Shown: positions 21,598 through 25,755 of the stretch, one piece after another | Layout: every line of letters begins with the position of its first letter | How positions within the stretch are numbered: the first letter of the stretch is position 1 | From: Escherichia coli | GTDB lineage: Bacteria > Pseudomonadota > Gammaproteobacteria > Enterobacterales > Enterobacteriaceae | NCBI RefSeq assembly: GCF_011045215.1 | Contig: NZ_CP049201.1 | Direction: 5' to 3' (one strand) | Length of the DNA: 64,000 bases | The notes under the pieces: model-generated | The model's input: only the letters and a program-made list of their open reading frames with translations | Told to the model about the DNA's origin: nothing | The model's database searches: none | Translations under genes and position numbers: made by a program

Positions 21598-22956
21598 TTA
21601 TGTCAGTAGTTTTTGCAGATGGATGAGCAAACGGTCAATCGCACGATAGCTAACTGCCTCCTGCAAATGCTGACGTGTGATAATGTCAGACTGATCAATA
21701 TCAGCAATGGTTCGTGCAACTTTCAATAACCGCTGCCAGGCACGAATCGATAACCCCAGATGGATCAGCGTTTCTTCCAGCCACTGCGCATCTTCGCTCT
21801 CAAGCTTGCAGAATTTGCGTATTTCCGGACTATCCAGCCAGGCATTCAGTTTATTCTGCCGCTTAAATTGGCGCTCTCTGGCGGCCATTACGCGTTGTTT
21901 AACGGTGGCGCTGCTTTCTCCCGGCACTACCGTTTTACTCAAAATGCCGGGGGGTGGTAATGGGATCTCCAGTGAGAGATCGAAGCGGTCGAGAAAGGGC
22001 CCCGAGAGCCGGTTGAGATAACGTAATGTCTGTTCTGGCGTGCAGCGGTTATGGTTTCCCTGATAATGTCCGGTAGGGCTGGGATTCATCGCCGCAACAA
22101 GCTGGAAACGGGCTGGATAGGTTATTTTTGCTCGTGTGCGTGAAAGATGGATCTGCCCGGATTCAATCGGCTCTCGCAAAGCATCCAGTGTACGCCGTTC
22201 AAATTCAGGTAGCTCATCAAGAAAAAGCACGCCGTTATGCGCCAACGAAATTTCACCAGGCCCTGGAATTGCACCACCGCCCACCATCGCAGTTAACGAC
22301 GCACTGTGATGCGGTGAGCGGAACGGGCGCTGCCGCCATTGTTTTTGTACTGATTCAGCATTTACCAGACTTAATATCGCAGCGCTCTCCAGTGCCTCTT
22401 CATTGCTTAAATCTGGCAAAAGACCATTAATACGGCTGGCGAGCATTGTTTTACCTGTTCCCGGCGGTCCAATCAGTAAAAGGTTGTGCCCACCAGCGGC
22501 GGTAATTTCCAGTCCTCGCTTTCCTTGCTCCTGACCGACAACATCACTGAGATCATGTTGTAGCGCCCGGGATACTGCATCAGTTGGTTTCGGGCGTTCG
22601 AGAGTGTGCTTACCTTCCAGAAACGCACAGACAGCCTGCAGATGATCGGCTATCAAGCATCCTTCTCCGTTAATTAGCCCCACTTCATCTTCGTTATCTT
22701 TCGCGACGATAATTTTTCTGCCCGACTTAATAGCTTCAGTTGCACTGGAGATTGCGCCGGGAACGCCACGCAGAGCGCCTGTAAGCGCCAGTTCTCCGAC
22801 TAATTCATATTCATCTAACTTATTGGCTGTAAGCTGTTCTGAGGCCGCCAGCAACGCAATGGCGATAGGTAAATCATATCGTCCCCCTTCTTTTGGTAGA
22901 TCGGCTGGAGCAAGGTTAATGGTGATTTTTTTCGCCGGATATTCATATCCGCTATT
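21598..22956 (-). pseudogene. comM: comM C-terminal fragment (Mg-chelatase-like AAA+ competence protein), separated from its 5-prime end by the island
   Basis: ORF 21598..23001; ComM-like sequence from ...NSGYEYPAKKITINLAPADLPKEGGRYDLPIAIALL onward; the first codons (GTG at 23001, MIYQLDSISYANLV) are island-derived. Confidence 0.85.
22947..22956. repeat. left junction direct repeat (att core copy) ATCCGCTATT
   Basis: Identical 10-mer at 35360..35369; comM coding sequence is continuous across the two copies if the intervening DNA is removed. Confidence 0.8.
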
Positions 22957-23026
22957 TATAACTAAATTCGCATAACTTATTGAATCTAATTGATAAATCA
23001 CACTATAAATAACGTTAGAAATCGCA

Positions 23027-23084
23027 AATTAACTACACCATTAACTACACCGTTCGGTGCACTGTATGGAACAACTTGGAACAA
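23027..23084. repeat. left-arm repeat module: tandem ATTAACTACACC x2 plus GGAACAA x2 (putative integrase arm-type sites)
   Basis: 26-bp exact match AATTAACTACACCATTAACTACACCG with 35207..35232, then shared GGAACAAC(T/C)TGGAACAA. Confidence 0.6.
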
Positions 23085-23318: not shown

Positions 23319-23386
23319 ACCAAACAAAAAGCCTTACCCGTAGGCTTAATGCTTGGCTTGACTGTAGGCTTACCGTAACGCGCCGC

Positions 23387-23566
23387 TCACCGTCGCAGCC
23401 TGTCCGGTTTCCGCCACTGATACGGCCTCACATTATCATGCTGGTGGCGTTCCTGTTGCAGCACAACGGAAACAGGCGCTGAACACCTGTTAATTTTGCT
23501 TGCTGGTTGTTTGATTCCGGCAATGCTGCGGATCATCTTCAGCAAATCGGCTTCGGTGATGGTCAT
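23387..23566 (-). CDS. small hypothetical protein, 59 aa (below the ORF-track threshold)
   Basis: Hand translation MTITEADLLKMIRSIAGIKQPASKINRCSAPVSVVLQQERHQHDNVRPYQWRKPDRLRR with AAGGTG-like SD upstream of the ATG. Confidence 0.35.
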   Translation of the reverse strand: MTITEADLLKMIRSIAGIKQPASKINRCSAPVSVVLQQERHQHDNVRPYQWRKPDRLRR

Positions 23567-23598
23567 GGTTTACACCTTAGGAAATCTTAGGGGGCTGG

Positions 23599-23858
23599 TT
23601 GACACTTTCCGGCTTAAGACCTTAACAAACCTTAACATCGCAGGTTGACACACTTGACACTTTTTCGCGAAAAACCTTATCAAACCTTAGCATTTCTAAG
23701 CATGGCAACTTGACACTTTTCGCGATTTTTTTCGGCTTTTTGACGTGGTAAATCTGGCGCAAGGCCAGTAACGGCGGGGCTTACAGCGAGGTTGACACTT
23801 TTTCGCGTTCAGAGTGTAAAGTGTCAACCCGGCAAGCTGCTCAACTTGACACTTTTTG
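23599..23858. repeat. array of six direct and one inverted copies of TTGACAC(T)TTTT(T)CGCG, interleaved with AACCTTAnC repeats
   Basis: Copies start near 23599, 23645, 23654, 23710, 23792, 23846; inverted copy 23821; immediately 3-prime of the HTH gene 23862..24389. Confidence 0.6.
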
Positions 23859-23861
23859 ATG

Positions 23862-24389
23862 TCATTGATGGTCTGATTTTTCCCATTCAGCCAGGGCGTT
23901 TAGCCCGGCTTCACTCCATGATTCCAGTTCATCGGCATAATCACCTGCAACATAGCAGAGTTCGCAACGCAGCATACGAATTGCCAGCCTGGCATTACCT
24001 CGCAAATTGTATTGTTCAAAGTAATGCTGCCCGTCGCAATCCTCAAGGCAGATAGCACCATCATCAAGAAAGTGCACTTCCCAGCCTAATTCCCCGGCTG
24101 CATCCAGCACACGCTGCTGTATGCCCTCGTCCGTTGCTGGCGCAGGAATTTTACCGTCTCTGGCCTTAACTGCTTTCCAGAACTCGCCCCACGTCATTTC
24201 CAGCGTTCTCTCTGGCCACATTTCAGAAACTGTGTCTTTTCCCTGTGCTGGTGGGCTGTTCCGCTGCTCTGTCGCTTCCACATCGATTTTTTTACCGGAC
24301 ATGACCACTTCGCCTTTCTCGATCCAGTCGTAAACTGTCTGGCGGCTTACGCCTTTGTGTTTGGCATATTCTGCCTTACTCATCAGCAT
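23862..24389 (-). CDS. island protein A: N-terminal HTH (excisionase / terminase-small-subunit-like) with C-terminal Cys pairs
   Basis: 175-aa ORF MLMSKAEYAKHKGVSRQTVYDWIEKGEVV...; C-terminal CLEDC and CELC pairs; assignment by eye only. Confidence 0.4.
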   Translation of the reverse strand: MLMSKAEYAKHKGVSRQTVYDWIEKGEVVMSGKKIDVEATEQRNSPPAQGKDTVSEMWPERTLEMTWGEFWKAVKARDGKIPAPATDEGIQQRVLDAAGELGWEVHFLDDGAICLEDCDGQHYFEQYNLRGNARLAIRMLRCELCYVAGDYADELESWSEAGLNALAEWEKSDHQ

Positions 24390-24395
24390 TATGAC

Positions 24396-25067
24396 TCACC
24401 CTTCTTTTTCCAGTTGAGCCAGCCGCCCGGATATTTCTTCCAGTTTTTCCAGGGCTGGCTTGCAGGCCGCATCAATAACGTCCCGGACCATTCCGGCAAG
24501 CTGCTCTTCTGCTGTCGGCGTTGTTACCTCCACACCCGATGGTTTCCCATCCTTATCCCATACGCCCAACGGTACGAGTGCAACGTGATCGATAAGAAAT
24601 GGCGTACCCTCAATAAAAAAATTGTCCTCGCCCATTACATCAGGAACTTCAGCCCCACCGGACGCACCACAAAACACAACCGACGGACTGGTGGATACCT
24701 CCCCCCGTGCTTTCTGGATGTAATCGATGATTTCCTGCCCGTAAATCCGGCATACGCCCCACACCTCGTCACCGCGAATATACGGCAACATGACGGTGCC
24801 AATAATGCGCGACCGTTCGCCCACGTCTTCAAGGGTTTTGCTTTCGGGATGGTCGATAATGACGGGTACTCCGGCGCAACGTTCCAGGAACTGCGGATTG
24901 AGATAAGTTTGCGGTGAACGCCAGACAAATTCTTTTTCTTCGGCGCGGTAGGCCATTCCGGTTCCTGTGATACGCAGGTTAACCAGCCACATGTTGGAAA
25001 ACTGATAAGGCGACGGTAGCTGTCCGTCCCGAATCTGCTTCGCCGCCTCAATTTCTGTTAAAAGCAT
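24396..25067 (-). CDS. island protein B, hypothetical (223 aa)
   Basis: Protein-like ORF MLLTEIEAAKQIRDGQLPSPYQF..., same strand and operon as A and C; no family recognised. Confidence 0.45.
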   Translation of the reverse strand: MLLTEIEAAKQIRDGQLPSPYQFSNMWLVNLRITGTGMAYRAEEKEFVWRSPQTYLNPQFLERCAGVPVIIDHPESKTLEDVGERSRIIGTVMLPYIRGDEVWGVCRIYGQEIIDYIQKARGEVSTSPSVVFCGASGGAEVPDVMGEDNFFIEGTPFLIDHVALVPLGVWDKDGKPSGVEVTTPTAEEQLAGMVRDVIDAACKPALEKLEEISGRLAQLEKEG

Positions 25068-25131: not shown

Positions 25132-25716
25132 TCATGCCCCCGCGAGGCTTGCAACGTTAATTTTAACCAGGCGACGGGGAGGGATTTTGAAAGCACTAAG
25201 CCAGTTATTCGGATCTCCCTGATATTCAGTAATCCGCCGTCCGGCTTCATCCATTCTTACGGTTTTACGCAAATAGCCCGGCGTGTTTTCCACGGCCCAC
25301 TGAGCACTTTCCTGAGCAGCCTTGTAAATCTGATCTTCCAGCACCGCCAGCGTTGCAGAATCTGAAACGGAACGAATATCCACATCACTGAATTTTTTAG
25401 CCAGCTTCTGTGCACCAATTAATGCACGCTTGCGGTAATCCATCGACTTTTCACCAGCAAACGGGGCCGGAGCGCGACGGCCCATATTGCTGTATGCGGA
25501 ATCCGCTTTAGCCTGGGCTTCTGCCAGTGAGGATTCATCTTCGACTGACGCGACGATGTTTTGATTAGCGTTATCCTCGTCCGCTTTTGTGAAATCCTGC
25601 GCGGGGATCGCATTCAGCATTTCGATAATCTCCTGCGGAGTGCTGCCCTGCGACTCTGACAGAGCGTTAACCACCTCCATCAGTTTTAATCGCAAATCTT
25701 CTTTGCTTGCTGGCAT
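25132..25716 (-). CDS. island protein C, hypothetical (about 194 aa)
   Basis: ORF 25132..25725; start placed at ATG 25716 (MPASKEDLRLKLMEVVNAL...) preceded by GAGGTGG. Confidence 0.45.
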   Translation of the reverse strand: MPASKEDLRLKLMEVVNALSESQGSTPQEIIEMLNAIPAQDFTKADEDNANQNIVASVEDESSLAEAQAKADSAYSNMGRRAPAPFAGEKSMDYRKRALIGAQKLAKKFSDVDIRSVSDSATLAVLEDQIYKAAQESAQWAVENTPGYLRKTVRMDEAGRRITEYQGDPNNWLSAFKIPPRRLVKINVASLAGA

Positions 25717-25755
25717 TGTTACCACCTCTCTTTTTTCACCAAAAAATCACGACCA

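What the first reader, a model, noticed from the sequence alone, without database searches (positions are those of the whole stretch)
23387..23566. Unannotated 59-codon ORF in the repeat-rich left arm
It falls just under the 60-aa threshold of the provided track but has an ATG with an SD-like AAGGTG and a basic C-terminal tail. It sits between the phased arrays and the TTGACAC array and could be a small DNA-binding or regulatory protein acting on those repeats.
Basis: seen in the sequence. Interest (0 to 1): 0.3.

Follow-up and report, generated by a model that had tools for sequence, protein, structure and literature searches.

The report
Truncated small gene in phage satellite
The 59-codon reading frame is real, but it is a shortened copy of a common small gene of unknown function carried by E. 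coli phage-satellite islands; it has lost the part that is conserved elsewhere, so it is probably a decaying remnant rather than a regulator of the nearby repeats.

Summary
The ORF exists as described, on the minus strand at 23387-23566: ATG start, AAGGTG six bases upstream, basic tail RKPDRLRR. It is the last gene of a 12.4-kb PICI-type phage satellite inserted in comM.

It is not new. NCBI's PGAP pipeline annotates the same ORF as a hypothetical protein in related E. coli islands, and it belongs to PHROG family 1561. That family is normally 93-97 aa. The long form is in about 870-1300 of 5426 complete E. coli genomes, and its core is under purifying selection (pN/pS 0.17).

The window carries a rarer short allele, found in 86 genomes. 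It keeps the N-terminal 24 residues and the tail but lacks about 38 central residues. Those form the helical hairpin that is also conserved in Klebsiella and Serratia homologues.

Across 29 short alleles, variable sites fall 9/10/10 over the codon positions (pN/pS 0.64). Tail residues that never vary in long forms do vary here.

The family mostly occurs without TTGACAC repeats. The better candidate for binding the repeats is the adjacent 175-aa protein, whose N-terminus is an excisionase (Xis)/BldC-like winged helix.

Verdict: an ordinary, probably degenerate allele; low interest.

The parts
23387..23566 (-). The 59-codon ORF plus stop codon; a short allele of the PHROG 1561 small-gene family
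23573..23578 (-). AAGGTG, Shine-Dalgarno-like, six bases before the ATG; also one copy of the TAAGGT/ACCTTA repeat motif of the array
   Evidence: (family D2)
23495..23566 (-). Codons 1-24 (MTITEADLLKMIRSIAGIKQPASK). This N-terminal segment is shared almost base for base with the long-form alleles in L003-L006. It is the variable part of the family and is absent from the Klebsiella and Serratia homologues
23441..23494 (-). Codons 25-42 (INRCSAPVSVVLQQERHQ): the junction left by the internal deletion plus a remnant of the end of helix 3. Almost invariant at the DNA level among short alleles (pi 0.003-0.015)
23390..23440 (-). Codons 43-59, including the tail YQWRKPDRLRR, homologous to the invariant Y[HQ]WKKPERLR[RT] tail of long forms but with substitutions. 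Homology between islands breaks down from here leftwards
23319..23347 (-). Terminator-like hairpin AAGCCTACGGGTAAGGCTT followed by TTTGTTTGGT, 40 bases after the stop codon. The 'GTAGGCTTA repeat' is its stem
23597..23861 (.). Array of seven TTGACAC/GTGTCAA sites interleaved with ACCTTA-type repeats, between the 175-aa gene and the ORF. The same sites sit at the same positions in all related loci
23862..24389 (-). 175-aa protein with an N-terminal Xis/BldC/Nu1-type winged helix-turn-helix; the more likely binder of the array
22946..22962 (.). Left junction of the island with comM. The core ATCCGCTATT[T/G]ATAA recurs at 35361-35377
   Evidence: and reading
23027..23052 (.). 26-base direct repeat AATTAACTACACCATTAACTACACCG, also at 35207-35232 just inside the other island end; candidate arm-type integrase sites

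Best explanation
The ORF is the terminal gene of a PICI-type phage satellite inserted in comM. It is an internally deleted allele of a small satellite gene (PHROG 1561) that is normally 93-97 aa.

The long form is predicted to have an N-terminal helix, a confidently modelled helical hairpin (residues 31-85) and an invariant basic tail, Y[HQ]WKKPERLR[RT]. It always lies just after the satellite's packaging-specificity module. The window's allele keeps the poorly conserved N-terminal 24 residues, about 11 residues from the end of helix 3, and a tail that has started to drift. It has lost the hairpin core.

Inferred steps: it is probably still transcribed as the last cistron of the leftward operon, translated from the inherited ribosome-binding site, and terminated at the hairpin 40 bases downstream. 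The product is most likely inert or only residually active. It does not act on the TTGACAC array. That array belongs with the neighbouring 175-aa Xis/BldC/Nu1-like winged-helix protein.

The family's own function is unknown. My best guess, also an inference, is an accessory factor of the packaging or hijacking module that docks on a conserved partner through its invariant tail.
For: Island identity:
- The island carries integrase, AlpA, AntA, DUF4222, a D5-type primase, ProQ and PerC.
- It splits comM.

Family membership:
- PHROG 1561 matches the ORF at E=3e-7 but only over the tail. The 96-aa relative P0022 matches it end to end at E=5e-47.
- hhalign places the ORF on profile positions for residues 1-34 and 80-96 only.

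The long form is a real gene:
- In 80 loci pN/pS is 0.27 overall and 0.17 in the core. Variable sites in the core fall 21/20/55 by codon position (chi-square p=4e-6).

The short form shows no such signal:
- Among 16 distinct sequences, variable sites fall 9/10/10. pN/pS is 0.64 overall and 1.0 in codons 1-42.
- Its share of third-position changes differs from the long-form core (Fisher p=0.036).

Tail:
- The tail is invariant in 80 long-form loci apart from a final R/T.
- Short forms show 8 tail variants in 29 loci. Position E92 is always D or N, and L94 is often P.
- Other short alleles have quite different tails.

The missing core is the conserved part:
- The Klebsiella (L124) and Serratia (L127) homologues of 62-63 aa consist of core plus tail only.
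- In the AlphaFold model the core has pLDDT 82-95.

Frequency: the short form is in 86 of 5426 complete E. coli genomes, the long form in 872-1298.

Redundancy: one contig carries a short form and a long form in tandem.

Terminator.

Neighbour as the repeat binder:
- Foldseek probability 0.98 to Pukovnik Xis and 0.6-0.75 to BldC.
- PHROG 57 terminase-small N-terminus.
- The GTGT[CA]AAC repeats follow its homologues across genera, down to 36% identity.
Against: - All 28 short-form ORFs examined are intact, and the deletion is in frame with the tail kept. Nearly all E. coli copies are annotated as CDS. A dead gene would be expected to pick up stops eventually.
- The short-form sample holds only 29 variable sites, so the selection tests have little power.
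- Codons 43-59 give pN/pS 0.44, which hints at some constraint.
- The short form is tightly linked to the 175-aa/TTGACAC module, being found with it in 28 of 28 loci. It has spread to several integration sites and to Salmonella. This could mean it is tolerated or even useful there.
- The 5' two-thirds of the ORF is the least diverse stretch of the whole region.
- No expression data were available.
Confidence: 0.6

Rival explanations
1. The short allele is a functional micro-protein. The N-terminal helix and the basic Y-W-KP-RR tail are enough for a reduced or altered activity. It might work as a minimal adaptor, or as a decoy that competes with long-form proteins of rival satellites for the same partner.
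For: - The ORF is intact in all 28 loci and the deletion is in frame.
- The tail motif YQW.KP..RR is kept in 28 of 29 alleles.
- pN/pS is 0.44 in codons 43-59.
- The ribosome-binding site and terminator are retained.
- The allele is found in 86 complete genomes, at several integration sites and in Salmonella.
Against: - It has lost the only part conserved across genera and confidently folded.
- There is no codon-position bias.
- It carries substitutions at positions that never vary in long forms.
- About a fifth of the short-allele protein clusters have unrelated tails.
- It is roughly ten times rarer than the long form.
Confidence: 0.23
2. One reading: the 59-aa product is a small DNA-binding or regulatory protein that acts on the flanking repeat arrays.
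For: - It has a basic C-terminal tail.
- It lies between the arrays.
- Short alleles always accompany the TTGACAC array.
- In Klebsiella and Serratia the winged-helix gene, the repeats and the small gene are also syntenic.
Against: - No DNA-binding domain or fold was found for the ORF or its family.
- 80 of 84 long-form loci have no such array directly upstream.
- The downstream repeats are not conserved between islands (pi above 0.4), and one of them is a terminator stem.
- An Enterobacter locus (L125) has the array but no small gene after it.
- A dedicated winged-helix protein sits next to the array.
Confidence: 0.07
3. The conservation reflects a cis-acting DNA or RNA element, such as part of a packaging site or an RNA structure, and the open frame is incidental.
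For: - The stretch 23441-23590 has the lowest nucleotide diversity of the region (pi 0.003-0.04, against 0.06-0.2 in the neighbouring gene).
- Changes are spread evenly over codon positions.
- The invariant middle contains AACAGG/CCTGTT/AACAGG complementary hexamers.
- In related satellites the family lies 73 bases from a cos site.
Against: - Predicted RNA folding is no better than shuffled sequence (z = -0.9 and -1.4).
- There is no Rfam match.
- There is no lambda cosN in the island.
- The low diversity has a simpler explanation: the deletion junction is young and unique, so it has no homologous partner to recombine with, while the flanks exchange with long-form alleles.
Confidence: 0.1

Closest known systems
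PHROG family phrog_1561 (unknown function); RefSeq hypothetical proteins of 93-97 aa in E. coli satellites
   Same: - Significant sequence homology at both ends.
- Same position as the last gene after the packaging module.
- In L003-L006 the same ribosome-binding site and the same upstream 175-aa gene and array.
   Different: - About 38 central residues are missing; these form the helical hairpin that is conserved and under selection.
- The tail carries substitutions at positions that are invariant in long forms.
- There is no coding signature in its polymorphism.
EcCICFT073-type cos PICIs (Fillol-Salom et al. 2018 PMC6092414; 2019 PMC6739421)
   Same: - The island has the Gram-negative PICI gene set of integrase, AlpA, primase and PerC.
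- In loci built like EcCICFT073 (capsid E, decoration D, a Nu1-like Rpp-position gene flanked by two inverted cosN sites), the long-form small gene follows directly, 73 bases after the second cosN.
   Different: - The window's island has no lambda cosN.
- Its protein in the Rpp position has no sequence match to solved Rpp or TerS structures and no Phage_Nu1 Pfam hit.
- A TTGACAC array replaces the cos sites.
- I did not find the small gene named or tested in those papers.
Small phage/satellite DNA-binding regulators (Xis, Cox, AlpA, BldC-type winged helices)
   Same: Small size, basic residues, and a position next to repeated DNA.
   Different: The ORF and its family show no such fold or domain. 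It is the neighbouring 175-aa protein that has this fold.
EcCIMP1-like 'Type C' PICIs without a recognisable packaging module (Pick et al. 2025, PMC11773190)
   Same: An E. coli island with integrase, AlpA, antirepressor, primase and PerC, and with unidentified genes downstream of the primase.
   Different: No direct comparison with EcCIMP1 was made here. EcCIMP1 lies in a region flanked by proA and yagU, not in comM.

Membership tests
PHROG 1561 small satellite protein (long form 93-97 aa) | Significant sequence similarity to the family profile | tested here: met
   phrog_1561 E=3.2e-7; hhalign probability 98.4%, E=4.8e-15; tblastn E=4e-11
PHROG 1561 small satellite protein (long form 93-97 aa) | Conserved helical-hairpin core (residues about 31-85: AENYARVVAEVMRRDGIELNGVDMRDIRIRVLE...) | tested here: not met
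   38 profile columns have no counterpart. The core is the part shared with the Klebsiella and Serratia homologues and has pLDDT 82-95
PHROG 1561 small satellite protein (long form 93-97 aa) | Invariant C-terminal tail Y[HQ]WKKPERLR[RT] | tested here: inconclusive
   The window has YQWRKPDRLRR, which is recognisably homologous but has K to R and E to D. Short alleles show 8 tail variants
PHROG 1561 small satellite protein (long form 93-97 aa) | Purifying selection on the protein | tested here: not met
   Short form: variable sites 9/10/10, pN/pS 0.64. Long-form core: 21/20/55, pN/pS 0.17. The short-form sample is small (29 variable sites)
PHROG 1561 small satellite protein (long form 93-97 aa) | Terminal position after the satellite's packaging-type module | tested here: met
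Gram-negative PICI (the host element) | Integrase, AlpA, primase/replicase, about 10-15 kb, flanked by a split target gene | tested here: met
   (Pfam hits); comM halves at 21598-22960 and 35352-35561 with a shared core; island about 12.4 kb
Gram-negative PICI (the host element) | Induction, packaging and transfer by a helper phage | not testable with these tools
   No helper identified; no lambda cosN in the island
   No Pfam or NCBIfam hit. The long-form model has no significant PDB or BFVD match
   The short form is linked to the array in 28 of 28 loci. Only 4 of 84 long-form loci have it directly upstream, and one more carries it further upstream on the same contig. L125 has the array without the gene
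Rpp / lambda Nu1-type small terminase (for the 175-aa neighbour) | N-terminal winged helix of the Nu1/Xis/MerR type | tested here: met
   phrog_57 E=1.4e-7 over residues 1-42; Foldseek probability 0.98 to Xis 4j2n; weak match to TIGR01764
Rpp / lambda Nu1-type small terminase (for the 175-aa neighbour) | Sequence membership (Pfam Phage_Nu1, or similarity to solved Rpp/TerS chains) | tested here: not met
   No Phage_Nu1 hit and no PDB sequence hit. By contrast, the L095 protein between the two cosN sites hits Phage_Nu1 at 6e-24

The most novel reading that the evidence does not exclude
The winged-helix protein, the GTGT[CA]AAC repeat array and the small tail-bearing protein together form a conserved three-part packaging or hijacking module of Enterobacterales satellites that has not been characterised. 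It would parallel the Rpp-cos arrangement. The invariant Y-WKKPERLRR tail would dock on a helper-phage or host partner. In this reading the 59-aa allele is a working minimal version, or a decoy, rather than a remnant.
Probability: 0.1. Interest if true: 0.55.

Novelty: new member of a known kind. Interest (0 to 1): 0.15.

Why it matters
For the ORF itself it matters little. It is a rare, probably decaying allele of a catalogued gene of unknown function, and it should not be read as the regulator of the repeats.

The useful by-products concern the satellite:
- This small-gene family is very common in E. coli, with matches in roughly a quarter of complete genomes.
- It always sits directly after the module that sets packaging specificity. 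That module is either a Nu1/Rpp-like gene with cos sites, or a winged-helix gene with GTGTCAAC repeats.
- The winged-helix-plus-array pair is conserved from E. coli to Serratia.

These points give concrete candidates for the still unknown packaging mechanism of 'Type C' PICIs that lack a recognisable terminase or Rpp.

Tried and rejected
- **Lambda-type cos site overlapping the ORF.** I noticed GTTTCC motifs resembling lambda R sites at 23407 and 23470, and a GC-rich stretch at the stop codon. A search for cosN (GGGCGGCGACCT, up to 2 mismatches) found no more matches than chance and none at the ORF; the one match inside the island lies in the primase gene. Dropped.
- **Conserved tail as a by-product of a DNA site shared with phages.** blastn and tblastn against 50,697 phage records found nothing.
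- **RNA element.** No Rfam match. Folding z-scores were not significant.
- **Promoter in the array.** No sigma-70 consensus match on either strand. The TTGACA hexamers lack a usable -10 partner.
- **Function of the family from structure.** There were no significant matches in the PDB or BFVD. The exhaustive HMMER search found only 33 clusters at 50% identity, so the family is narrow. One hit, to a 2175-aa repeat protein (P0163), looks spurious to me.
- **The 175-aa neighbour as an Rpp.** No sequence support; only the generic winged-helix fold.
- **Locating EcCICFT073 in the CFT073 chromosome to name the long-form gene.** Two 45-50 kb fetches missed it. I relied instead on the published gene order, which L095 matches.

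Full report
**Observation**

The ORF is present exactly as listed, on the minus strand at 23387-23566. It has an ATG start, 59 codons, and AAGGTG six bases upstream at 23578-23573. It ends in RKPDRLRR. Upstream of it lies an array of seven TTGACAC/GTGTCAA sites (23597-23861). Downstream lie short CGTGAC, CGTAGT and GTAGGCTTA repeats.

Length alone proves nothing. About 6% of random 59-codon stretches are open, and the neighbourhood is full of spurious ORFs of similar size. Homology is what lifts this one above chance.

**Setting**

The window is an E. coli-type chromosome carrying rbs, hdfR, maoP, comM and the ilv operon. A 12.4-kb island splits comM:
- The 3' part of comM ends near 22960, and a 5' fragment lies at 35352-35561.
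- A shared core, ATCCGCTATT[T/G]ATAA, lies at both junctions.
- The island encodes a tyrosine integrase with an arm-binding domain, AlpA, an AntA antirepressor, DUF4222, a D5-type primase, ProQ/FinO and PerC. This is the gene set of a Gram-negative phage-inducible chromosomal island (PICI).

All of these genes, and the ORF, read leftwards. The ORF is the last gene before the left junction. A terminator-like hairpin with a T-run follows it at 23347-23319. The stem of that hairpin is what looks like the 'GTAGGCTTA repeat'.

**The ORF is already catalogued**

PGAP annotates the same ORF as a hypothetical protein in related E. coli islands, both in comM and at another site. A protein search found 23 clusters at 90% identity in E. 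coli, Salmonella and Escherichia sp.. In their alignment, residues 1-42 are nearly constant and the C-termini fall into several unrelated versions.

The PHROG scan matched phrog_1561 only over the last 23 residues. One relative of 96 aa, P0022, has the same two ends with extra residues in the middle, and it matches phrog_1561 end to end at E=5e-47.

Searching with P0022 returned 971 clusters. The long form matches 1298 of 5426 complete E. coli genomes, 872 of them over at least 80% of its length. The short form matches 86.

**Long form against short form**

In 80 IMG/VR loci the long form behaves as a normal gene:
- pN/pS is 0.27 overall and 0.17 in the core.
- Variable sites in the core fall 21/20/55 by codon position (p=4e-6 against uniform).
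- Its first 28 codons are variable and show no codon bias.

The 28 short-form loci plus the window give a different picture:
- All the ORFs are intact.
- The 16 distinct sequences have variable sites at 9/10/10.
- pN/pS is 0.64 overall and 1.0 in codons 1-42.

The tail Y[HQ]WKKPERLR[RT] is invariant in 80 long forms across several different upstream contexts. Short forms show eight versions of it, and position E92 is always replaced.

Profile alignment places the window's ORF on residues 1-34 and 80-96 of the family, with 38 positions missing. A comparison with the divergent 86-aa relative P0168 shows what the ORF keeps: the end of helix 3 (VVLQQERHQ against ILAARRRHQ) and the tail.

**What the missing part is**

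AlphaFold2 on a family alignment gives three helices at 5-16, 31-48 and 55-85. Mean pLDDT is 78, rising to 82-95 in the 31-85 hairpin. There is no significant structural match in the PDB or in BFVD, and no Pfam or NCBIfam domain.

In Klebsiella (L124) and Serratia (L127), ORFs of 62-63 aa lie behind homologues of the neighbouring 175-aa gene. They are homologous to the core plus tail only (hhalign probability 97-98%). So the hairpin and tail are the ancient, conserved unit, and the N-terminal extension is dispensable. The window's allele has kept the dispensable part and lost the hairpin.

**Relation to the repeats**

Every short-form locus has the 175-aa gene followed by 5-7 TTGACAC sites at fixed positions. 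Of the 84 long-form loci, only four (L003-L006) have the array directly upstream. A fifth (L042) carries it further upstream, in front of a short-form copy on the same contig.

Twenty-five of the 80 IMG/VR loci instead have a lambda cosN 73 bases upstream, usually paired with a second, inverted cosN about 870 bases further up. Between the two cosN sites lies a Phage_Nu1-family gene. It is preceded by lambda-type capsid E and decoration D genes.

This matches the published layout of EcCICFT073: c1499 capsid, c1500 decoration protein, c1503 rppA, and two cos sites (PMC6092414; PMC6739421). The family therefore follows whichever packaging-specificity module a satellite carries. It is not tied to the TTGACAC motif.

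The 175-aa neighbour is a better candidate for binding the array:
- Its model is confident (pLDDT 88).
- Its first 50 residues match mycobacteriophage Xis (probability 0.98), BldC and P2 Cox. From my own knowledge of these families, they bind runs of direct repeats cooperatively.
- It also matches the N-terminus of terminase small subunits (phrog_57).
- Homologues down to 36% identity, in Klebsiella, Enterobacter and Serratia, are still followed by AAAGTGT[CA]AACC repeats.

**DNA-level conservation**

The ORF's 5' two-thirds is the least diverse stretch of the region (pi 0.003-0.04). Homology between islands collapses inside the ORF's 3' end. I considered a cis-acting element, but found no lambda cosN at the ORF, no Rfam hit and no unusual RNA stability.

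A simpler reading is that the deletion junction is young and unique. It has no partner for recombination, while its flanks exchange with long-form alleles. One contig carries a short form followed 570 bases later by a long form, which shows the two can coexist.

**Conclusion**

- **Shown:** the ORF is real, is derived from a gene, is already annotated elsewhere, and is a core-less allele of a catalogued family.
- **Inferred:** it is transcribed and terminated as the last cistron, and its product is inert or nearly so.

The alternative that it still works as a micro-protein cannot be excluded. Every copy examined is intact, the deletion is in frame, and the sample of substitutions is small.

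Noticed in passing
window 23027-23052 and 35207-35232: An identical 26-base direct repeat, AATTAACTACACCATTAACTACACCG (itself a 12-base tandem), lies just inside both island ends. The integrase has an arm-DNA-binding domain, so these are candidate arm-type sites.
   Followed up: partly
window 23597-23861; L124 3015-3133; L125 3176-3742; L127 3094-3264: The gene for the 175-aa winged-helix protein is followed by AAAGTGT[CA]AACC repeats in E. coli, Klebsiella, Enterobacter and Serratia, although the proteins are only 36-64% identical. This looks like a conserved protein-plus-site unit with no described function.
   Followed up: partly
L025-L030 (about 1955-2028 in each locus): The distance between the end of the 175-aa gene (with the first TTGACAC site) and the second site differs between otherwise near-identical loci in steps of 8 bases. 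This suggests a short tandem repeat with variable copy number.
   Followed up: no
L009 3001-3180 and 3750-4043 (same contig as L042): One satellite carries the short allele and, 570 bases downstream, a full-length long allele with a different upstream region.
   Followed up: partly
L095 2060 and 2928; also 24 other loci of L035-L114: Two inverted lambda cosN sites about 870 bases apart bracket a Phage_Nu1-family gene, as published for cos1 and cos2 of EcCICFT073. The long-form small gene starts 73 bases after the second site, on its cosQ side.
   Followed up: partly
L095 3832-6160: Directly after the small gene come the C-terminal third of a lambda-family portal gene and an S49 peptidase. This satellite appears to be inserted inside a helper prophage's portal gene, like the helper-embedded PICIs of PMC10111431.
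   Followed up: partly
window 24396-25067 and 25132-25725: Two adjacent genes match the N- and C-terminal parts of one 545-position PHROG profile (phrog_6216). The first also hits DUF2213 and head maturation protease. PGAP labels the homologue of the second 'NUDIX hydrolase' in relatives, but no Pfam hit for any family reached significance here.
   Followed up: no
window 30765-32558: A 597-codon minus-strand ORF with an implausible, low-complexity translation overlaps plus-strand ORFs (for example 31153-31629, which has no Pfam hit). The relative L001 has different annotated genes at this position, so this may be a swapped-in segment or cargo.
   Followed up: no
L003 6908-8050; L120 3578-5176: In relatives, the space between the small gene and the island end holds cargo such as a Fic-domain protein or a GapS1-family protein. 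It looks like a variable accessory or defence slot.
   Followed up: no
L119 2367-2512 (E. coli EC02): A frameshifted, partial remnant related to the middle of the short allele lies near ygeQ and an IS3 element, and is annotated as a pseudogene.
   Followed up: no
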